Virus record (IMG/VR): IMGVR_UViG_2671180456_000007
Coordinates: 1 to 33,775 of that record
From: a virus
Taxonomy: Duplodnaviria > Heunggongvirae > Uroviricota > Caudoviricetes
Length of the DNA: 33,775 nucleotides
Direction: 5' to 3' (one strand)
A program made the position numbers and the translations under genes. The notes beneath the pieces were generated by a model, which searched no databases, had not been told where the DNA came from, and worked only from the letters and a program-made list of their open reading frames with translations. Positions 6,338 through 30,871 of the stretch are shown here, in pieces. Numbering within the stretch: the stretch's first letter is position 1; every line of letters begins with the position of its first letter.

Positions 6338-7081
6338 ATGACACAGACTGAATCAGCGATTCTGGCACATGCCCGGCGGTGTGCGCCTGCGGAGTCGTGC
6401 GGCTTCGTGATAAGCACGCCGGAGGGGGAGCGGTATATCCCTTGTGTGAATATTTCCGCAGAGCCGGAGGCGTATTTTCGTATCGCACCGGAAGACTGGC
6501 TGCGGGCAGAGATGCAGGGGGAGATTGTGGCACTGGTCCACAGTCATCCCGGTGGGCTGCCCTGGCTGAGCGAGGCTGACCGGCGGTTGCAGATAAAAAG
6601 CGCACTGCCCTGGTGGTTGGTCTGCCGGGGTGACATTCACAAATTCCGCTGTGTGCCACATCTGACAGGACGGCGCTTTGAGCACGGGGTGACGGACTGT
6701 TACACGCTGTTCCGGGATGCTTATCATCTGGCGGGGACTGAAATGCCGGATTTTCATCGCGAGGATGACTGGTGGCGCAACGGTCAGAACCTTTACCTGG
6801 ACAATATGGCGGTCACCGGCTTTTACCGGGTGCCCCTGTCCTCTGCACAGGCGGGCGATATTCTGCTGTGCTGCTTTGGTGCTTCGGTACCGAACCATGC
6901 CGCCATTTACTGCGGCAACGGTGAGCTGCTTCACCATCTGCCTGAACAACTGAGTAAACGGGAGAGGTATTCCGAAAAATGGCAACGACGAACGCATTCA
7001 GTCTGGCGTCACCGCCACTGGCACGCATCTGCCTTCACGGGGATTTACAACGATTTGGCCGCCGCCTCAGCCTGTATGTGA
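6338..7081 (+). CDS. K: Tail tip assembly protein K (JAB/MPN plus NlpC/P60-like domains)
   Basis: ATG at 6338 follows the L stop; protein MTQTESAILAHARRCAPAESCGFV... has a JAMM-like motif HSHPGG...SEAD and an NlpC/P60-like Cys/His region (DCYTLFRDAYH). The ORF-finder start at 6077 is an upstream extension overlapping L; the 3' end overlaps gene I by about 100 nt. Confidence 0.75.
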   Translation: MTQTESAILAHARRCAPAESCGFVISTPEGERYIPCVNISAEPEAYFRIAPEDWLRAEMQGEIVALVHSHPGGLPWLSEADRRLQIKSALPWWLVCRGDIHKFRCVPHLTGRRFEHGVTDCYTLFRDAYHLAGTEMPDFHREDDWWRNGQNLYLDNMAVTGFYRVPLSSAQAGDILLCCFGASVPNHAAIYCGNGELLHHLPEQLSKRERYSEKWQRRTHSVWRHRHWHASAFTGIYNDLAAASACM

Positions 7082-7659
7082 ACACGGCAGCGGAAGCCAT
7101 TCGCGCCCTGTCGATGCAGATGCCGGGCTTTCGCCGTCAGATGAACGAAGGCTGGTACCAGATACGTATTGCCGGTTATGACACGGCACCGGAGGCGGTG
7201 TACGCCCGTCTTCACGAACAGCTGGGTGAGGGAACGGTCATCCACATTGTGCCGCGACTGGCCGGGGCCGGAAAGGGTGGACTGCAGATTGTGCTGGGGG
7301 CGGCAGCCATCGTGGGCTCTTTCTTCACTGCCGGGGCATCAATGGCGTTATGGGGTTCAGCCCTGGCAGCCGGTGGTTTTTCTGCCACCACGATGCTGTT
7401 TTCACTTGGAGCCAGCATGATTCTGGGCGGTGTGGCCCAGATGCTGGCCCCGAAGGCAAAAACACCGGATTACCGCGCAACGGATAACGGCAGACAGAAC
7501 ACGTACTTTTCCTCACTGGATAACATGATTGCCCAGGGGAACCCGATGCCGGTGCCTTACGGGGAAATGCTGGTTGGCTCCCGCCGTATATCCCAGGACA
7601 TCAGCACCCGTGATGAAGGCGGGGGCGGAAAGGTCGTGGTTATCGGGCGGCAGGGGTAA
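6979..7659 (+). CDS. I: Tail tip assembly protein I
   Basis: 226-aa ORF; ...ARICLHGDLQRFGRR...YQIRIAGYDT...GNPMPVPYGEMLVGSRRISQDISTRDEGGGGKVVVIGRQG is lambda gpI-like. Confidence 0.8.
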   Translation: MATTNAFSLASPPLARICLHGDLQRFGRRLSLYVNTAAEAIRALSMQMPGFRRQMNEGWYQIRIAGYDTAPEAVYARLHEQLGEGTVIHIVPRLAGAGKGGLQIVLGAAAIVGSFFTAGASMALWGSALAAGGFSATTMLFSLGASMILGGVAQMLAPKAKTPDYRATDNGRQNTYFSSLDNMIAQGNPMPVPYGEMLVGSRRISQDISTRDEGGGGKVVVIGRQG

Positions 7660-7666
7660 AAAGAAT

Positions 7667-7705
7667 AAAAAAATCCCGCAGTGATCGCGGACAGGAACTG
7701 CGGGA
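7667..7705 (-). terminator. Intrinsic terminator on the minus strand (8-bp stem TCCCGCAG/CTGCGGGA followed by a U7 tract on the minus-strand RNA)
   Basis: Plus-strand sequence AAAAAAA TCCCGCAG ...16 nt... CTGCGGGA; read on the minus strand this is a stem-loop followed by TTTTTTTATTCTTTTT. The 16-nt loop is large for a terminator. Confidence 0.5.
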
Positions 7706-7763
7706 GAGTTACGAAGATTAAGTGTAAGGAATTATTCTTATATCACGACAAAAAAATTAACGC
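7667..7763 (-). ncRNA. Candidate ~95-nt noncoding RNA from a moron in the I-J spacer
   Basis: Predicted transcript between the minus-strand sigma70-like promoter (7770-7798) and the minus-strand terminator (7667-7705); no ATG-initiated ORF inside. Confidence 0.35.
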
Positions 7764-7769
7764 AGAGAA

Positions 7770-7798
7770 ATTATACGCGCCACAGTCAGTTTGTGAAA
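7770..7798 (-). promoter_or_regulatory. Sigma70-like promoter on the minus strand: TTCACA, 17-nt spacer, TATAAT
   Basis: Minus-strand -35 TTCACA (plus 7793-7798) and -10 TATAAT (plus 7770-7775) with a 17-nt spacer; A/T-rich UP-like sequence upstream on the minus strand. Confidence 0.5.
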
Positions 7799-7872
7799 AT
7801 GTGAAGATATTCAGAATTTTTATGCCATTACCGGTTTTAACCAACAGGATTATCGGTGGGCATGAAAGAAAA

Positions 7873-7905
7873 CCCCGGTATCTGCTGATACCGGGGTTTC
7901 TCTTT
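7873..7905. terminator. Bidirectional intrinsic terminator hairpin (10-bp stem CCCCGGTATC/GATACCGGGG, loop TGCT) flanked by T-rich tracts on both strands
   Basis: Perfect 10-bp inverted repeat with a 4-nt loop; TTTCTCTTT follows on the plus strand and TTTTCTTTC on the minus strand. Confidence 0.55.
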
Positions 7906-8275
7906 AGCATGGCAGAAATGTGTTTCATGCTTTTCGGGCGAAGGATATCCGACTTCTGTACGGAATGGCAAGTGGCGGTTAATTTATTCAGGGGAAGGCT
8001 GTATGGGAAAAGGTGGCGGTAAGGCACACACGCCTCGTGAGGCGAAGGATAATCTCAAATCCACGCAGATGATGAGCGTGATTGATGCGATTGGTGAGGG
8101 ACTGATAGAAGGTCCGGTGAAGGGACTGCAGAGTATCCTGGTGAACAAAACCCCGCTGACGGACACGGACGGTAATCCCGTGATACACGGTGTGACGGCG
8201 GTCTGACGCGCCGGGGAGCAGGAGCAGACACCACCGGAAGGCTTTGAGTCCTCCGGTGCTGAAACCGGACTGGGC

Positions 8276-9919
8276 GTGGAAGTGACGAAGGCAAAACCGG
8301 TGACGCGCACCATTACGTCCGCGAACATTGACCGCCTGCGGGTTACCTTCGGGGTGCAGTCACTGGTGCAGACCACGTCAAAGGGTGACCGAAACCCGAC
8401 ATCCGTCCGCCTGCTGATTCAGTTACAGCGTAACGGTAACTGGGTGACAGAAAAGGATGTCACCATTAACGGCAAGACCACCTCGCAGTTTCTGGCGTCG
8501 GTGATTCTGGATAATCTGCCTCCCCGTCCTTTTAACATCCGGATGGTCCGGGAGACAGCGGACAGCACCACGGACCAGCTGCAGAATAAGACGCTGTGGT
8601 CGTCATACACCGAAATCATCGATGTGAAACAGTGCTACCCGAACACGGCCATTGTGGGGCTGCAGGTGGATGCGGAGCAGTTCGGCGGCCAGCAGATGAC
8701 GGTGAACTACCATATCCGCGGTCGCATCATCCAGGTGCCGTCAAACTATGACCCGGAAAAACGCACGTACAGTGGTATCTGGGACGGCAGCCTGAAACCG
8801 GCATACAGCAACAATCCGGCCTGGTGTCTGTGGGACATGCTGACTCACCCGCGCTACGGCATGGGAAAACGTCTGGGGGCGGCGGATGTGGACAAGTGGG
8901 CGCTGTATGCCATCGGGCAGTACTGCGACCAGACGGTCCCGGATAGTTTCGGGGAGACCGAGCCGCGGATGACCTTCAATGCGTACCTGGCACAACAGCG
9001 TAAGGCATGGGACGTGCTCAGTGATTTCTGCTCGGCGATGCGCTGTATGCCGGTATGGAACGGCCAGACGCTGACGTTTGTTCAGGACCGCCCGTCGGAT
9101 GTGGTGTGGCCGTACACCAACAGCGATGTGGTGGTGGATGATAACGGCGTGGGTTTCCGCTACAGCTTCAGTGCCCTGAAGGACCGGCACACGGCGGTGG
9201 AGGTGAATTATACCGACCCGCAGAACGGCTGGCAGACCTCCACGGAACTGGTGGAAGACCCGGAAGCCATACTGCGCTACGGACGCAACCTGCTGAAGAT
9301 GGACGCGTTCGGCTGTACCAGCCGCGGTCAGGCCCACCGTGCCGGACTGTGGGTGATAAAGACCGAACTGCTGGAAACGCAGACGGTGGATTTCACGCTC
9401 GGGTCTCAGGGGCTGCGGCACACACCCGGTGACATCATTGAAATCTGTGATAACGACTATGCCGGGACCCTGACCGGCGGACGTGTCCTGTCCATTGATG
9501 CTGCCACCCGCACTCTGACGCTGGACCGTGAAGTGACACTTCCGGAGACCGGTGCCGCCACGGTGAACCTGATTAACGGCAGCGGTAAGCCGGTGAGTGT
9601 GGACATCACCGAACACCCCGCGCCGGACCGGATACAGGTCAGTACCCTGCCTGATGGTGTGGAGACATACGGGGTGTGGGGACTCTCCCTGCCGTCACTG
9701 CGCCGTCGCCTGTTCCGCTGTGTCTCCGTCCGGGAAAACACGGACGGCACCTTTGCCATCACGGCGGTGCAGCACGTACTGGAAAAAGAAGCCATCGTGG
9801 ATAACGGTGCCCGCTTTGAGCCGCAGTCAGGTTCCCTGAACAGCGTCATCCCACCGGCAGTGCAGCACCTGACGGCCAGTATCTGGCGCAGGCGAAATGG
9901 GACACGCCGCGGGTGGTGA
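8276..9919 (+). CDS. J: J protein central fragment (the frame is open from 8207; GTG at 8276 is the first possible start)
   Basis: 547-aa ORF with lambda J-like sequence ([29 protein letters not shown]... [29 protein letters not shown]...). Confidence 0.6.
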
Positions 9920-11454
9920 AGGGTGTGCGCTTCAGTCTGCGCCTGACCAGTGGTAAGGGAACGGATGCCAGACTGGTGACCACCGCCATCACCGCAGACA
10001 CGGAGCACCGTTTCAGCGGCCTGCCGCTCGGGGAATACACCCTGACGGTGCGGGCGATAAACAGCTATGGCCAGCAGGGTGAACCTGCCACCACCACCTT
10101 CCGGATTGCCGCACCGGCAGCACCGTCGCGGATTGAGCTGACGCCGGGCTATTTTCAGATAACCGCAACGCCGCATCTTGCCGTTTATGACCCGACGGTA
10201 CAGTTTGAGTTCTGGTTCTCGGAAAAGCGGATTGCGGATATCAGGCAGGTTGAAACCACAGCACGCTATCTTGGCACGGCGCTGTACTGGATAGCCGCCA
10301 GTATCAATATCAAACCGGGCCATGATTATTATTTTTACGTTCGCAGTGTGAACACCGTTGGCAAATCGGCATTCGTGGAGGCTGTCGGTCGGGCGAGCGA
10401 TGATGCGGAAGGTTACCTGGATTTTTTCAAAGGAGAGATAGGGAAAACACATCTGGCTCAGGAGCTGTGGACGCAGATTGATAACGGTCAGCTTGCGCCT
10501 GACCTGGCTGAAATCAGGACGTCCATTACGGATGTCAGCAATGAAATCACGCAGACTGTCAATAAGAAACTGAAAGACCAGAGTGCGGCAATCCAGCAGA
10601 TACAGAAGGTTCAGGTTGATACAAATAATAATCTGAACAGCATGTGGGCTGTGAAGCTGCAACAGATGAAGGACGGACGCCTTTATATTGCGGGTATCGG
10701 TGCCGGTATTGAGAATACGCCAGCAGGAATGCAGAGTCAGGTGCTGCTGGCGGCAGACAGGATTGCGATGATTAATCCTGCGAATGGCAACACAAAGCCG
10801 ATGTTTGTTGGTCAGGGCGATCAGATATTCATGAACGACGTGTTCCTGAAACGCCTGACGGCTCCCACCATTACCAGCGGCGGTAATCCTCCGGCATTTT
10901 CCCTGACACCGGACGGAAAACTGACCGCTAAAAATGCAGATATCAGTGGCAGTGTGAATGCGAACGCCGGGACGCTCAACAATGTCACAATTAATGAGAA
11001 CTGTCAGATTAAGGGGAAACTGTCAGCCAACCAGATTGAAGGCGATATAGTCAAAACAGTGGGTAAGGCTTTTCCGCGGGACTCCCGGGCACCGGAGCGG
11101 TGGCCATCAGGGACCATTACCGTCAGGATTTATGACGATCAGCCTTTTGACAGGCAAATTGTTATTCCGGCGGTGGCATTCAGCGGCGCTAAACATGAGC
11201 GGGAGAATAACGATATTTATTCGTCATGCCGCCTGATAGTACGGAAAAACGGTGCTGAAATTTATAACCGTACCGCGCTGGATAATACGCTGATTTACAG
11301 TGGTGTTATTGATATGCCAGCTGGTCGCGGCCACATGACGCTGGAGTTTTCGGTGTCAGCATGGCTGGTGAATAACTGGTATCCCACAGCAAGTATCAGC
11401 GATTTGCTGGTTGTGGTGATGAAGAAAGCCACCGCAGGCATCAGTATCAGCTGA
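9913..11454 (+). CDS. J: J protein C-terminal fragment (fibronectin-like repeats and receptor-binding end)
   Basis: 513-aa ORF; ...[54 protein letters not shown]... is lambda J-like. Confidence 0.6.
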
Positions 11455-15200: not shown

Positions 15201-17315
15201 TACACTATTCGTGTTACAACGACAACAACATCGGGTCATGGTGGCGTTAATAATGCGGAATTTATTTATGTGTACAATGGCAGTGATTACTCGCCAGGCT
15301 GGCGTCGTTCTTATAATACTAGAAACAAACCAACAGCTTCTGATGTAGGAGCATTATCGCTTTCTGGAGGAGCGTTAACTGGCGGATTAACTGCTGCTGG
15401 CGAGATTATTTCAAAATCGGCGAATGGTCTGCGCATTGCCTACGGAAACTACGGATTCTTTATCCGAAACGATGGTTCAAGCACATACTTCATGTTGACC
15501 GATTCGGGTAACAGCCTGGGAACCTATAATAGTTTAAGGCCGCTTATCATTAACAATGCCAATGGTGCTGTTACGATCGGTAATGGACTCAATGTTACTG
15601 GCGGCATCAATGGTAGTTTGAACGGTAATGCTTCAACAGCTACGAAGTTGCAAACAGCGAGAAACATCAATGGTGTTAAGTTTGATGGTTCAGGCGATAT
15701 CAATATTAATACATTGGTATCTCGTGGCCGAGTTACGGCGTTAAGCGGCTCTACTCAAGGCACTGCTGGCATTCAAATGTATGAGGCGTACAACAATAGC
15801 TACCCGACCACGTATGGCAACGTATTGCACATGAAAGGTGCGAGTGCTGCTGGTGAGGGCGAGTTGCTTATTGGCTGGAGCGGAACGGATGGTGCTCATG
15901 CACCGGTTTATGTTCGTTCACGCCGTGATACTTCGACAGCGAACTGGTCTGGCTGGGCGCAGATCTACACAACTGCTCATAAACCCACTGCGGCTGATGT
16001 CGGTGCGTTGCCGAGCGGTGGCGGCACACTTTCCGGCGCACTCACATTATCTATGGCTGCGCCAAGTGTCCAGTTACGAGGGCAAGGTACGGACACCAGA
16101 CAGTACATCATGGCTTACAGAACCGATGGCGCTACATCATGGTATGTGGGCAAGGCTAACAACGGCTCCGATAATGCGATGTTCTGGAACTATACCGGCT
16201 CCAACGGAATTGAATTGGCTGCCGATGGCAATGTGCGTATTAATGCGAAGGGTAAACAGTTTACGTTCGCAAACAATGGGAACTTAGGTCTTGTTGCTTC
16301 GTTGGATCAGAGTTCAGTTCCACAGGGTACTTACCATCAAGTAGCTCTTAACACTGGCACTGTTGGTGGTAAATCGTACCTTCGAAAATTCCGCGGCGGC
16401 AACACAGACACCATTTGGCATGAGACGGTTCAGGGCGGCTTACTTCGTTGGGCAACCGGCAATGCTGATGAGCAAGAAGAACTGTCTATCAGTACTGGCT
16501 ATGGTGTTCGAGCAAGAGGTGAAATCACTTCCCTTAGCGCCAATGGTCTAAGAGTGGCTTACGGGAATTACGGCTTCTTTATTCGCAATGATGGCGGAAC
16601 AACTTACTTCATGCTGACTGCTTCTGGCGACAAGTTCGGAAGCTGGAATGCTTTGCGTCCAATGTACATTAACAACGCTTCAGGCGCGGTTACGATGGGG
16701 AACGGGTTGTCGCTTGCCGGTGGCTTAAATGTCACGAGCGGAAATATCCGAATCCCGACGTCGAGTACATCTTGGATCGACATGAGAAACAATGCCGCTC
16801 TGTCTAACAGTTCTGCGGTTGCCACTTCCTCTGCATCGGCCATTATTCGTCAGGAGCACGCCGATCGTCATTATTTTGTTGGTGGTTTAGGCAACTCTCA
16901 GTTCGGGTTCTACATGATTAACAAGTCACGAACCGCGAACGGCACGGATGCGAACGCATACCTCCAGAATGACGGTACTTGGGTTTGCGGCGGTAATGGC
17001 AGCTTTAATGACGTTTATATCCGTTCTGACCGCCGTAGTAAGCGCAATATTCGCAAGATTGACCGGGCGCTCGACAAGCTGGAGCAGATCGAAGGTGTTC
17101 TCTACGAGATTCAGGTCTGTGGCCGTTATGAGCAGTCTGGTGGCCTCATCGCTCAGGATGTCCAGAATGTTCAACCTGAACTGGTAACGGTCGACCATAA
17201 CGATCAGTCAGGAGAGCCTCGTCTGCGTCTTAACTACAACGGCGTTATCGGCATGTTGGTTGAGGCTGTCAAAGAGCTGCGCGAGGAAGTGCGCGAACTG
17301 AAGGCAAAAATGTAA
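12273..17315 (+). CDS. stf: Side tail fiber protein, chimeric: lambda Stf-like N-terminus, Ala/Ser-rich repeat segment, three ~100-aa T-even-like distal fiber repeats, C-terminal intramolecular chaperone (peptidase S74-like) domain
   Basis: 1680-aa ORF; N-terminus MTVKISGVLKDGTGKPVQNCTIVLKAR... is lambda Stf-like; repeated AKTSETNA motifs; three repeats of the form (A)NGLR(I/V)AYGNYGFFIRNDG..TYFMLT..G...NSLRP..INNA.GAVT; C-terminal ...DVYIRSDRRSKRNIRKIDRALDKLEQIEGVLYE matches the SDxxxKxNI autoproteolytic chaperone motif. Confidence 0.85.
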   Translation: MTVKISGVLKDGTGKPVQNCTIVLKARRTSSTMVVNTVASENPDEAGRYSMDVEHGQYSVTLLVEGFPPSHAGTITVYEGSRPGTLNDFLGAMTEDDVRPEALRRFEQMVEEVSRNASAVAQNTAAAKKSASEAATHATDAAASARAASTSAGQAASSAQSASSSAGTASTKAREAAKSAAAESSKSAAATSASAAKTSETNAAASQKSAATSASTATTKASEAATSARGAAASKEAAKSSETNASSSASSAASSATAAGNSAKAAKTSETNAKSSETAAGQSASAAAGSKTAAALSASAASTSAGQASASATAAGKSAESAASSASTATTKAGKATEQATAAARSASAAKTSETNAKTSADNAASSKAAAASSASSAASSASSASASKDEATRQASAAKGSATTATTKASEAAGSATAASQSKVAAESAATRAETAAKRAEDIASAVALEDASTTKKGIVQLSSATNSTSETLAATPKAVKAANDNANSRLAKNQNGADIPDKARFLSNINAASKTDMASKRGMKYSTVNAPAGVEAGKFYPVVIRRSAGFVDELASRVTISTSSRTGNHRLNNCEFNGFVMPGGWTDRGKYAYGMFHAYTASERAIHSIMMGNKADDLCSVFYVEGEAFPIAVYVEEGLSVVVPSADYVVGQTTYKWGATNPKTECVAADTILDFSNGRGFYSSHSFLTNADISGNKVYANDEVIVRSQNALRMIAGDYGVIWRNDGANTYLLMTDKGDQYGGWNGLRPFAVNNATGEVTINTPLNSPKGVKGNSDTATKLQTARKISGVPFDGSTDITLTAAHVAAFARRATGSYADADGGVPWNAESGAYNVNRTGDSYILANFYTGVGGCRTLQIKAHYKNGGLFYRSSRDGYGFESGWEQVYTTGFRPQPADINAPTAADGWLNSGNGTAFTTAQFITWLNNQGAFSNKYWIARCSWYYANNNYIDDTGCGRIDLSGSVIEVFSNKTTSNYTIRVTTTTTSGHGGVNNAEFIYVYNGSDYSPGWRRSYNTRNKPTASDVGALSLSGGALTGGLTAAGEIISKSANGLRIAYGNYGFFIRNDGSSTYFMLTDSGNSLGTYNSLRPLIINNANGAVTIGNGLNVTGGINGSLNGNASTATKLQTARNINGVKFDGSGDININTLVSRGRVTALSGSTQGTAGIQMYEAYNNSYPTTYGNVLHMKGASAAGEGELLIGWSGTDGAHAPVYVRSRRDTSTANWSGWAQIYTTAHKPTAADVGALPSGGGTLSGALTLSMAAPSVQLRGQGTDTRQYIMAYRTDGATSWYVGKANNGSDNAMFWNYTGSNGIELAADGNVRINAKGKQFTFANNGNLGLVASLDQSSVPQGTYHQVALNTGTVGGKSYLRKFRGGNTDTIWHETVQGGLLRWATGNADEQEELSISTGYGVRARGEITSLSANGLRVAYGNYGFFIRNDGGTTYFMLTASGDKFGSWNALRPMYINNASGAVTMGNGLSLAGGLNVTSGNIRIPTSSTSWIDMRNNAALSNSSAVATSSASAIIRQEHADRHYFVGGLGNSQFGFYMINKSRTANGTDANAYLQNDGTWVCGGNGSFNDVYIRSDRRSKRNIRKIDRALDKLEQIEGVLYEIQVCGRYEQSGGLIAQDVQNVQPELVTVDHNDQSGEPRLRLNYNGVIGMLVEAVKELREEVRELKAKM

Positions 17316-22937: not shown

Positions 22938-23678
22938 ATGAGCCAGATCTTTTTCGATACCATCGACAACGACCAGTACGACTTCATGACAGAGTGGAAT
23001 ACCGCTGTTATGGACAAGTGGGTCGCTGAAAACATTGGTTTGTCGCGCTGTAAAGACGAGGCTGAACTCTTCGAGACGAAGTGGTTTGATTACCGCGACA
23101 TGCATCCTCTCATGGCCACCTGTCTTTTTACGGAGGCATACAAACGTCAGTACTCAAATATCATGCTGACGCACGGTCGCGAACACTTTGAAACAGCTCC
23201 GTTCACCACCGGGTTAAAACGTCTGCCTTATCAGGAGTTGTCGACTGCCAACAAAACGTCGCTATGGAAAGCACGCCAGTTTGCGGATCGCTATTGCTGC
23301 TCATACGACTACTTTATCTCCACCGTTCTTTCCGCAGCTGCACGACGACTGTGGGACAAGCTGCCGCGTCCGCAGCATTTGTGGCAGCCAGAACTGATTG
23401 AGATATTCGAAGAGAAATTAGCCAGACGCGCAACAACCCGTCTGGATGACTCTCTGGTTAGCTTTAAGCATATGGGAGACATGCAGTTCAACCCGATTCA
23501 GGAAAGCTATTTTGAGTGGATTCTGGAGCGTTTGCGCACCATCCCCCGCAGCAAGCGCATACGCGCAATTTTCTCCGCTATCTGGCTAATGGAAATCGTT
23601 CCAGAGCGCCTTATTTCCGCCCACTTTCCAGAAGAACTGGAAGAAGCACGGCGGTTTATTGATCCCCTATCTAATTAA
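22938..23678 (+). CDS. Hypothetical protein, first gene of the replication module (possible helicase loader or accessory factor)
   Basis: ATG at 22938 with RBS AGGTGA upstream (the ORF-finder start at 22929 is a GTG); 247 aa, no recognisable motif; immediately upstream of the helicase gene. Confidence 0.6.
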   Translation: MSQIFFDTIDNDQYDFMTEWNTAVMDKWVAENIGLSRCKDEAELFETKWFDYRDMHPLMATCLFTEAYKRQYSNIMLTHGREHFETAPFTTGLKRLPYQELSTANKTSLWKARQFADRYCCSYDYFISTVLSAAARRLWDKLPRPQHLWQPELIEIFEEKLARRATTRLDDSLVSFKHMGDMQFNPIQESYFEWILERLRTIPRSKRIRAIFSAIWLMEIVPERLISAHFPEELEEARRFIDPLSN

Positions 23679-30624: not shown

Positions 30625-30699
30625 GATGGTGTAGCTCAGCGGTAGAGCAGTTGGCTGTTAACCAACTGGTCGGTGGTTCGAATCCACCCACCATCGCCA
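30625..30699 (+). tRNA. tRNA-Asn (anticodon GTT)
   Basis: Manual fold: acceptor GATGGTG/CACCATC, D-stem GCTC/GAGC, anticodon stem GTTGG/CCAAC with loop CTGTTAA, T-arm GGTGG-TTCGAAT-CCACC, discriminator G plus encoded CCA. Confidence 0.8.
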
Positions 30700-30704
30700 A
30701 TTTA

Positions 30705-30791
30705 GGGGAGTTAGTCCGTAGGGGCAGCGGGGTAGACTGTAAATCTACTGTCATTGCGACTCGGGTGGTTCGACTCCATCACTCCCCACCA
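30705..30791 (+). tRNA. tRNA-Tyr (anticodon GTA), class II with long variable arm
   Basis: Acceptor GGGGAGT/ACTCCCC, anticodon stem GTAGA/TCTAC with loop CTGTAAA, variable stem-loop, T-arm GGTGG-TTCGACT-CCATC, encoded CCA; the D-arm region is non-canonical (4-nt linker). Confidence 0.7.
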
Positions 30792-30795
30792 AATT

Positions 30796-30871
30796 GCCGG
30801 TTTAGCTCAGTTGGTAGAGCGTCTGCCTTGTAAGCAGGATGTCAGCGGTTCGATCCCGTTAACCGGCACCA
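30796..30871 (+). tRNA. tRNA-Thr (anticodon TGT)
   Basis: Acceptor GCCGGTT/AACCGGC, D-arm GCTC-AGTTGGTA-GAGC, anticodon stem TCTGC/GCAGG with loop CTTGTAA, T-arm AGCGG-TTCGATC-CCGTT, encoded CCA. Confidence 0.8.

What the first reader, a model, noticed from the sequence alone, without database searches (positions are those of the whole stretch)
7660..8002. Moron between tail genes I and J: strong antisense promoter plus terminator predicting a ~95-nt noncoding RNA
In lambda, I and J are contiguous; here a 343-bp AT-rich insert separates them. On the minus strand it carries a near-consensus sigma70 promoter (TTCACA, 17-nt spacer, TATAAT; plus coordinates 7770-7798) with an A/T-rich upstream region, and about 60 nt downstream a stem-loop followed by a U7 tract (7667-7705). 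The predicted transcript has no ATG-initiated ORF. A second, perfect 10-bp bidirectional terminator hairpin sits at 7873-7905. This is the layout of a lysogen-expressed moron, but it encodes an RNA rather than a protein, and it is antisense to the 3' end of I and the 5' leader of J.
Basis: partly seen in the sequence, partly recalled or inferred. Interest (0 to 1): 0.62.

Follow-up and report, generated by a model that had tools for sequence, protein, structure and literature searches.

The report
PasB-family prophage small RNA gene
The insert between tail genes I and J carries a self-contained gene for a roughly 97-nt Hfq-type regulatory RNA of the already known PasB/EcOnc22-24 prophage family, here in a divergent version that the published survey of the family could not have detected.

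Summary
On the minus strand there is a near-consensus sigma-70 promoter (TTCACA, 16 nt, TATAAT; 7797..7770), a predicted start at G7763, and a strong intrinsic terminator (stem 7705..7674, U7 7673..7667). No AUG lies in between.

It is not new in kind. It is the window's copy of pasB, an Hfq-dependent 83-nt sRNA shown by Northern blot and RIL-seq in EPEC E2348/69. There it sits at the same place, directly after the stop codon of I and antisense to the tail operon.

The EHEC sRNAs EcOnc22/23/24 (~85 nt, Hfq-dependent) are another allele of the same gene. Their published Northern probe maps to it.

The window allele is only 72% identical to PasB. It keeps the promoter, an upstream box, the terminator and two short single-stranded motifs. 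A blastn search with word size 28, as in the 2026 survey, does not find it. Yet it is at least 99% identical in 613 of 5,426 complete E. coli genomes and is never annotated.

Only 7660-7826 is the RNA module. The rest (7827-8002, with the 10-bp hairpin) is an alternative J leader, and lambda has its own hairpin there.

Expression and function of this allele are inferred, not shown.

The parts
7667..7763 (-). Predicted primary transcript of the pasB-family sRNA gene (97 nt, from G7763 to the end of the U7 tract). The published 83-nt PasB of E2348/69 maps to 7748..7667.
   Evidence: Mapping of NC_011601 1466343..1466261 onto the window. A profile built from 21 alleles less than 80% identical to the window hits 7763..7668 end to end, E 1.8e-13. 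No ATG is present.
7770..7775 (-). -10 hexamer TATAAT
   Evidence: Its position is conserved in all alleles, as nATAAT or TATCAT.
7792..7797 (-). -35 hexamer TTCACA, with a 16-nt spacer to the -10
   Evidence: The same hexamers occur in E2348/69. This element is variable in other alleles.
7798..7822 (-). Conserved upstream box (AATAAAAWTTCTGAAnnTCTTCACATTT, about -35 to -59). It is the best conserved block of the spacer and is probably a regulator-binding or UP-like element.
   Evidence: Mean pairwise identity is 0.94, against 0.67-0.85 for every other segment, including the 3' end of I.
7667..7705 (-). Intrinsic terminator: stem arms 7705..7695 and 7686..7674, then U7 at 7673..7667. This is the presumed Hfq-binding 3' module.
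   Evidence: It is the only consensus structure found across 24 alleles.
7706..7763 (-). Single-stranded body. It holds the 5' GCGUUA, a U-run, the ARN repeat AAGAAUAAU (7739..7731), UUCCUU (7731..7726) and UUAAUCUUC (7721..7713). This is the presumed seed region.
   Evidence: No conserved pairing is predicted here. The motifs are conserved across alleles. ARN repeats were found.
7827..8002 (+). J leader, 'module B'. It contains a 10-bp perfect hairpin (7873-7896, extendable to 13 bp) and the J ribosome-binding site. It is not part of the sRNA gene.
   Evidence: It is replaced by unrelated ~75-bp leaders in other phages. It is at least 99% identical in 1442 of 1451 E. coli records.
6979..7659 (+). 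Tail assembly gene I (upstream neighbour, convergent with the sRNA gene)
   Evidence: Pfam Lambda_tail_I, 6.3e-17. RefSeq annotation of the identical region.
8003..11454 (+). Tail tip gene J. Here it is a pseudogene, with W68* (TGA at 8204-8206) and a 22-bp deletion at 9868.

Best explanation
Window 7660-7826 is a pasB-family small-RNA gene. It is a moron inserted directly after the stop codon of tail gene I and read against the tail operon.

Proposed mechanism:
1. In the lysogen, host sigma-70 RNA polymerase starts at about G7763 from its own promoter. An unidentified factor bound to the conserved upstream box probably assists (inferred).
2. Transcription stops at the hairpin plus U7 at 7667.
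3. The product is a 97-nt RNA, possibly trimmed to about 83-85 nt as in its relatives. It has an unstructured A/U-rich 5' two-thirds and a 3' terminator hairpin with a U-tail.
4. Hfq binds the U-tail and the ARN repeat (inferred).
5. The RNA then pairs in trans with host and prophage mRNAs through its single-stranded region, UUCCUU...UUAAUCUUC (inferred).

Because that region differs between alleles while the expression signals are kept, this allele probably has a target set different from PasB of E2348/69.

Shown here: the anatomy, the homology, the conservation pattern and the distribution. Shown by others for two other alleles: the transcript, its size, its Hfq dependence and its Hfq-bound RNA partners. 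Inferred for this allele: expression, Hfq binding and the pairing mechanism. Targets are unknown.
For: - Promoter and terminator lie on the minus strand at the right spacing.
- PasB of E2348/69 (Table S6 of PMC8550237: NC_011601 minus strand, 1466343..1466261, 83 nt) lies in the I-J spacer and maps to window 7748..7667.
- Its Northern probe matches the window at 20 of 23 bases.
- Its promoter hexamers are identical to the window's.
- The whole module aligns at 80.5% over 169 nt, E 1e-36. A profile built from distant alleles hits the window at E 1.8e-13.
- In that study PasB levels fell in the hfq mutant (log2 fold change -6.8 and -2.4) and PasB had 37 RIL-seq partners.
- EcOnc22/23/24 of Sakai are ~85 nt and destabilised without Hfq. 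They sit in the I-J spacers of Sp15, Sp14 and Sp11, and their probe maps to the same gene.
- The only consensus structure across 24 alleles is the terminator; the rest is single-stranded.
- GC content is 36.5% in the module against 56-60% in the flanks.
- Lambda lacks the module.
- The window allele is at least 99% identical in 613 complete E. coli genomes. Here it is intact while the adjacent J is a pseudogene.
Against: - There are no expression data for this allele.
- The body is only 72% identical to PasB, so PasB's targets cannot be transferred to it.
- The terminator pairs are invariant, so there is no covariation support. Part of that invariance comes from the search pattern I used to collect alleles.
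- The published 5' ends and sizes (83 and ~85 nt) are 6-15 nt shorter than the promoter predicts. The start site or a processing step is therefore uncertain.
- No physiological function has been shown for any allele.
- No Rfam model exists against which to score it.
Confidence: 0.82

Rival explanations
1. Cis-antisense regulator. The RNA's main job would be to pair with the perfectly complementary I-J intercistronic stretch of the late transcript. That would give an RNase III substrate or a transcriptional collision, silencing leaky expression of J, lom and stf in lysogens or uncoupling I from J during lytic growth.
For: - The gene is found only at this junction, in every allele.
- The only strong duplex partner in the window is the sense strand at 7667-7763.
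- The gene is convergent with I.
Against: - The RNA overlaps no coding sequence or ribosome-binding site. The I stop is at 7659 and the J ATG at 8003.
- PasB has many Hfq-bound trans partners in RIL-seq.
- The gene is kept intact here although J is already a pseudogene.
- It is also kept as the 3' end of a sodC transcription unit in other prophages.
- This reading is not exclusive of trans action.
Confidence: 0.1
2. Inert remnant in this host. The signals are intact but the gene does nothing useful here. It is simply carried along with a decaying prophage tail region.
For: - J is a pseudogene, and the tail module is fused to phage-plasmid genes.
- No function is known for any allele.
Against: - The 97-nt allele is at least 99% identical in 613 genomes.
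- The upstream box is better conserved than the coding 3' end of I.
- The 541 bp spanning the module (7560-8100) are 100% identical to those of strains in which J is annotated as intact.
Confidence: 0.06
3. A small protein gene rather than an RNA gene. Candidates are the + strand ORF that some phage records annotate in the spacer, or the 66-codon ORF that runs through module B (ATG at 7823).
For: - Hypothetical CDSs are annotated in the spacers of 1720a-02 and PhiR12_1.
- AAGGA followed 9 nt later by ATG occurs on the + strand in some alleles.
Against: - In the window that ATG is ATA, and in the E2348/69 type it is absent.
- Indels that are not multiples of three separate the alleles.
- There are no Pfam or significant PHROG matches.
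- There is no Shine-Dalgarno sequence before 7823.
- The minus-strand RNA has been seen experimentally in two alleles.
Confidence: 0.02

Closest known systems
PasB (pathogenicity-associated sRNA B) of EPEC O127:H6 E2348/69, prophage PP6 (Pearl Mizrahi et al. 2021, PMC8550237; survey by Zhu, Shabalina and Storz 2026, bioRxiv 10.64898/2026.05.13.724894)
   Same: - Same locus (I-J spacer, 3' end a few nt after the I stop) and same strand.
- Same -35 and -10 hexamers and 16-nt spacer.
- Same upstream box.
- Identical last 25 nt, covering the 3' arm of the terminator hairpin and the U7 tail.
- Shared motifs CCUU and AUCUUC, and an ARN-rich tract.
   Different: - Only 72% identity over the 83 nt, and the longest shared word is 25 nt.
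- The region proposed as the seed differs (UUAAUCUUCGUAACUC against UUGAUCUUCAUUUGUCUG).
- The terminator loop is 5 nt longer.
- The J leader next to it is a different module.
- The survey's search settings (word 28, coverage above 75%) return no hit on the window.
EcOnc22 / EcOnc23 / EcOnc24 of EHEC O157:H7 Sakai, prophages Sp15, Sp14 and Sp11 (Tree et al. 2014, PMC4104026)
   Same: - Same locus and strand.
- Same upstream box, terminator arms and U7 tail.
- About 85 nt, bound by Hfq and destabilised without it.
- The Northern probe maps to the body of the gene.
   Different: - About 71% identity to the window over the module.
- The -35 region is not consensus-like, and the -10 is AATAAT.
- Neither PasB paper held in the library mentions these RNAs.
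AgvB / AsxR anti-sRNAs of EHEC prophages (Rfam RF02702, RF02703)
   Same: They are prophage-borne, Hfq-binding short RNAs with their own promoter and terminator, at a fixed moron site. They have a conserved 3' part and a variable 5' part, and they carry ARN motifs.
   Different: - They sit at a different site, downstream of PR' and Q rather than in the tail operon.
- Their sequences are unrelated, and no Rfam hit was found in the window.
- They act as sponges for GcvB and FnrS. Nothing indicates that role here.
Protein-coding morons of lambdoid phages, such as lom and bor in lambda, or sodC in the I-J spacer of Sakai Sp10
   Same: Extra DNA lies between genes that are close neighbours in lambda. 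It has its own promoter and terminator, a lower GC content, and is expressed from the prophage. sodC occupies the very same spacer in the same antisense orientation.
   Different: The product here is an RNA, not a protein.

Membership tests
PasB / EcOnc22-24 sRNA family | The gene lies in the I-J spacer of a lambdoid tail operon, is transcribed against it, and has its 3' end just past the I stop codon | tested here: met
   The window RNA ends at 7667 and the I stop codon ends at 7659. The arrangement is the same in E2348/69, Sakai Sp11, Sp14 and Sp15 and 13 phage records.
PasB / EcOnc22-24 sRNA family | Sequence homology to the described members | tested here: met
   The module aligns to E2348/69 at 80.5% over 169 nt, E 1e-36. 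The transcript alone is 72% identical. A profile of 21 alleles less than 80% identical to the window hits it end to end at E 1.8e-13.
PasB / EcOnc22-24 sRNA family | [quoted passage not shown] | tested here: met
   The stem never varies, so there is no covariation evidence.
PasB / EcOnc22-24 sRNA family | A transcript of about 83-85 nt detectable in the lysogen | not testable with these tools
   Shown by Northern blot only for the E2348/69 and Sakai alleles.
PasB / EcOnc22-24 sRNA family | Hfq binding and Hfq-dependent stability | not testable with these tools
   Shown only for the E2348/69 and Sakai alleles. In the window, only the sequence module (U7 tail, ARN repeat) is present.
Moron (in the sense of Juhala and Hendrix) | Extra DNA between genes that are adjacent in related phages | tested here: met
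   The lambda I-J spacer is 60 bp and has no pasB module. The window spacer is 343 bp.
Moron (in the sense of Juhala and Hendrix) | Own promoter and terminator, and a base composition unlike the flanks | tested here: met
   GC is 36.5% in the module against 60% in I and 56.5% in J.
Moron (in the sense of Juhala and Hendrix) | Expressed from the repressed prophage | not testable with these tools
   True for the alleles studied in uninduced E2348/69 and Sakai cultures.
Cis-antisense phage RNAs (lambda OOP type) | Overlaps the coding region or ribosome-binding site of the gene it controls | tested here: not met
   The transcript 7667-7763 overlaps neither I (ends 7659) nor the J ribosome-binding site or ATG (8003).
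AgvB/AsxR anti-sRNA family (RF02702, RF02703) | Match to the Rfam covariance models, i.e. the conserved 3' region | tested here: not met
   No such hit was found at gathering score or at E up to 10.

The most novel reading that the evidence does not exclude
pasB may not be one slowly evolving sRNA. It may be an exchangeable cassette.

- A fixed expression frame (upstream box, -10, 5' GCGUUA, terminator) surrounds a fast-diverging pairing region.
- The cassette recombines between prophages at its conserved ends.
- In some phages it is multiplied into arrays of 2-4 divergent copies in the same I-J spacer.
- In others it has been co-opted as the 3' end of a sodC gene.

On this reading each allele, including the unstudied one in the window, rewires a different set of host mRNAs. 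The antisense position in the late operon would add a cis effect on J, lom and stf expression.
Probability: 0.2. Interest if true: 0.55.

Novelty: new member of a known kind. Interest (0 to 1): 0.3.

Why it matters
The kind of element is known, so the finding itself is ordinary. The follow-up adds four points.

1. The family is larger and more diverse than the published survey concluded. At least five alleles at 70-80% identity were seen, and the window allele alone is in 11% of complete E. coli genomes, many from human clinical sources such as urine and blood. The survey called PasB the least diverse Pas sRNA. That is probably an effect of its word-28 search.
2. PasB of EPEC and EcOnc22-24 of EHEC, described separately, are alleles of one gene.
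3. The conserved upstream box is a concrete target for finding the regulator.
4. Allele-specific pairing regions imply strain-specific regulation that current annotation misses completely.

Tried and rejected
- **Rfam.** Searches at gathering score and at E up to 10 gave only tRNAs elsewhere in the window and sub-threshold terminator look-alikes in the spacer.
- **Target scan.** An RNAduplex scan of the sRNA body against both strands of the window found only the trivial antisense site. The other hits were loose, loop-rich duplexes. Genome-wide target prediction was not possible with the data available.
- **Module B as a decayed second copy.** I tested whether 7827-8002 is a degenerate pasB copy or a remnant of an array linker. 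nhmmer with the module profile, and sensitive blastn against all loci, found nothing beyond the shared upstream box and the hairpin matching itself. The weak minus-strand promoter at 7971..7942 (9 of 12) plus the bidirectional hairpin could still give a ~65-nt RNA, but nothing supports that.
- **Identity of the upstream-box factor.**
  - TCTGA-N6-TCACA resembles the CRP core in 9 of 10 positions, but its centre is at about -44.5 rather than -41.5 or -61.5.
  - A LexA-like CTG-N10-CAT lacks the critical final G.
  - No FNR-like match was seen.
  - These were judged by eye and are left open.
- **Coordinates of EcOnc22-24.** In the current Sakai record they appear to lie upstream of the pasB promoter. 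This was traced to the 128-bp difference between record versions, using AgvB1 as an anchor. The published probe sequence then settled it.
- **ORFs in the spacer.** No family matches were found.
- **Second profile hit.** The hit at 23313-23356 (E 0.0012) lies inside a coding ORF and is taken as chance.
- **Taxonomic range.** The genome-collection scan returned mostly chance terminator matches outside enterobacteria. Three true copies sat in small contigs assigned to other organisms and are likely contamination.

Full report
**What is in the sequence**

Gene I ends at 7659 and J starts at 8003, which leaves a 343-bp spacer. Its GC content is 41.7%, against 60% and 56.5% for the flanking genes.

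On the minus strand the scanner finds TTCACA, 16 nt, TATAAT at 7797..7770, matching 11 of 12 consensus positions. This is the only site of that quality in the window. It is not significant on its own: shuffles give 0.17 expected, and 17 of 100 shuffles contain at least one.

Seven bases after the -10 lies G7763. Starting 58 nt further downstream, RNAfold gives a GC-rich hairpin at 7705..7674 followed by U7 at 7673..7667. The predicted 97-nt RNA has no AUG, and its GUG and UUG frames stop within three codons.

The second hairpin also exists as described. It has a perfect 10-bp stem at 7873-7896 and folds at about -29 kcal/mol on either strand, z about -7. Two corrections apply: the promoter spacer is 16 nt, not 17, and lambda's I and J are 60 bp apart rather than contiguous.

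**What it is**

The 541 bp around the spacer are 100% identical to the chromosomes of many E. coli strains, most of those listed being human isolates. PGAP annotates nothing between I and J in those records.

A literature search led to PasB, one of five prophage sRNAs found by RIL-seq in EPEC E2348/69 (PMC8550237).
- Table S6 of that paper places PasB on the minus strand of NC_011601 at 1466343..1466261. It is 83 nt long, lies in prophage PP6, and was probed with AATCCCGCAGTGATCGCGGAGCT.
- That interval is the I-J spacer of PP6.
- It aligns with the window so that PasB corresponds to 7748..7667.
- The probe matches the window's + strand at 20 of 23 positions.
- The PP6 promoter has the same hexamers and spacing as the window's.
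- In that study PasB was confirmed by Northern blot. It fell strongly in the hfq mutant (log2 fold change -6.8 and -2.4), had 37 RIL-seq partners, and was higher in overnight static LB than under virulence-inducing conditions.

A second, older description turned out to be the same gene.
- Tree et al. 2014 (PMC4104026) list EcOnc22, 23 and 24 in Sakai prophages Sp15, Sp14 and Sp11. They are ~85 nt on Northern blots and destabilised without Hfq.
- All three peaks lie in I-J spacers, on the strand antisense to the tail genes.
- In today's record their coordinates appear to fall upstream of the pasB promoter. The record has since grown by 128 bp, and the AgvB1 anchor shows a shift of that order. 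With the shift applied, the EcOnc22 peak lies inside the predicted transcript.
- The published Northern probe for EcOnc22/23/24 settles the matter. It aligns to the I/J-sense strand across the body of the gene.
- Neither PasB paper held in the library mentions these names.

**The window allele is divergent**

Over the 83 nt the window is 72% identical to PasB. The longest shared word is the last 25 nt, covering the 3' arm of the terminator hairpin and the U-tail.

A profile built only from 21 alleles less than 80% identical to the window still matches it end to end at E 1.8e-13. The whole module aligns to E2348/69 at E 1e-36. Membership in the family by homology is therefore secure.

The 2026 survey of Pas sRNAs searched with the 83-nt query, word size 28 and coverage above 75%. 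With those settings the window gives no hit. That survey described PasB variants as differing by a few nucleotides and called PasB the least diverse Pas sRNA.

In the complete-genome collection used here:
- The window allele is at least 99% identical in 613 records, and a 90-95% relative (the Stx2c/Stx1a phage type) is in 588 more.
- The E2348/69 type is at least 95% identical in about 925 records.
- No feature is annotated under any listed match.

**Anatomy of the family**

I aligned 15 spacers from phage records and 55 distinct modules collected with a pattern scan of IMG/VR. At least five body types appear, at 70-80% identity to one another.

The conserved parts are:
- the -10 position;
- the first six nucleotides of the predicted RNA (GCGUUA);
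- a U-run;
- an A-rich ARN-type tract;
- CCUU;
- UUAAUCUUC;
- the terminator arms and the U7 tail;
- above all, a box upstream of the -35 (AATAAAAWTTCTGAAnnTCTTCACATTT).

Mean pairwise identity in the box is 0.94. That compares with 0.67-0.79 for the other parts of the gene and 0.85 for the coding 3' end of I. The -35 itself is poor in several alleles, which suggests that a factor bound at the box drives the promoter.

RNAalifold on 24 alleles predicts only the terminator hairpin and shows no covariation. Part of the invariance of the terminator arms and of GAAGAT is imposed by my search pattern. The BLAST-derived set shows the same features, however.

**The spacer is two modules**

Only 7660-7826 is shared with other spacers. 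From 7827 to the J ATG the window and the PPompW phages carry module B. E2348/69, PhiR5_1, the Stx phages and others carry unrelated ~75-bp leaders instead.

The two halves recombine. PPompW joins the E2348/69 body to module B, and PhiR5_1 joins the window body to the other leader.

Module B is at least 99% identical in 1442 of 1451 E. coli records that contain it.

Each leader type has a different strong hairpin followed by a T-rich run on the + strand, just before J:
- the window type;
- the E2348/69 type, scored as a terminator;
- lambda, ACCGCC-TGCG-GGCGGT-TTTT.

It is not part of the moron. Whether it also ends a second minus-strand RNA from the weak promoter at 7971..7942 could not be supported.

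**How it most likely works**

The anatomy is that of an Hfq-dependent trans-acting sRNA:
- an independent sigma-70 promoter;
- a long unstructured A/U-rich 5' part with an ARN repeat;
- a 3' hairpin with a U7 tail.

Two other alleles bind Hfq and need it for stability, and PasB ligates to many mRNAs on Hfq. I therefore take trans pairing through the single-stranded region as the mechanism. [quoted passage not shown] Because the region differs between alleles, I expect allele-specific targets.

A cis-antisense role on the late transcript is possible but secondary. The RNA overlaps no coding sequence or ribosome-binding site. It is kept intact here although J carries W68* and a 22-bp deletion. 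Its body and terminator are also retained downstream of a sodC gene inserted in the same spacer in Sakai Sp10 and several Stx2 phages.

**Verdict**

This is a real feature, correctly read by the first stage, and it belongs to a known family. The window carries a common but unsurveyed and unannotated allele. Expression, Hfq dependence and targets of this allele remain to be shown.

Noticed in passing
L080 300-1200; L071 4400-5050; L075; L037, L048, L086, L105 (IMG/VR contigs): Some phages carry 2-4 pasB-like modules in tandem in one I-J spacer, with a period of 179-240 bp. Each module has its own terminator, divergent body, -10 and upstream box. Seven of about 126 loci that contain the box show this. 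I did not find this mentioned in the PasB papers.
   Followed up: partly
L014 601-1301 (Stx2_EH2201); L159 18484-19336 (Sakai Sp10); L033, L104, L117, L121: In these prophages a Cu/Zn superoxide dismutase gene (sodC) sits in the I-J spacer on the pasB strand and replaces the pasB promoter. The pasB body and terminator remain directly downstream of sodC, where they would serve as its 3' UTR and terminator.
   Followed up: partly
window 8003-11454: J is a pseudogene. It has TGG to TGA at 8204-8206 (W68*) and a 22-bp deletion at 9868, relative to the intact J of strain 50579417.
   Followed up: yes
window 12273-33775: The lambdoid tail module is joined, within the side tail fibre gene (lambda-type N-terminus plus T4 gp34-like trimer domains), to genes typical of SSU5-like phage-plasmids. 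These include a gp38 adhesin, GNAT, ParA, a DnaB-like helicase, an ATP-dependent ligase, three tRNAs at 30625-30868, and an integrase-family gene. No complete E. coli record covers both halves.
   Followed up: partly
window 7798-7822 (minus strand): The box upstream of the -35 is the most conserved block of the whole I-J spacer (0.94 mean identity). It contains TCTGA-N6-TCACA, a 9-of-10 match to the CRP core, centred at about -44.5. The factor that binds it is unknown.
   Followed up: partly
window 7827-8002: The 176-bp J leader is at least 99% identical in 1442 of 1451 E. coli records, with no diverged copies, although it is linked to two pasB alleles that differ by 28%. This points either to a recent spread by recombination or to strong constraint.
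   Followed up: partly
L158 146-205 (lambda 15445-15504); L002 1931-1954; window 7873-7896: Three unrelated I-J leaders each carry a strong hairpin followed by a T-rich run on the sense strand, just upstream of J. Lambda, which lacks pasB, has one too. This looks like a conserved terminator-like element inside the late operon.
   Followed up: no
L028 (contig labelled Streptomyces flavalbus), L023 (Parendozoicomonas haliclonae, 460-bp contig), L031 (Clostridiales MAG): True pasB modules occur on small contigs of unrelated organisms. These are most likely E. coli or phage contamination, or misbinning. Among species representatives, only Escherichia albertii (L025, L033) is a credible host.
   Followed up: no
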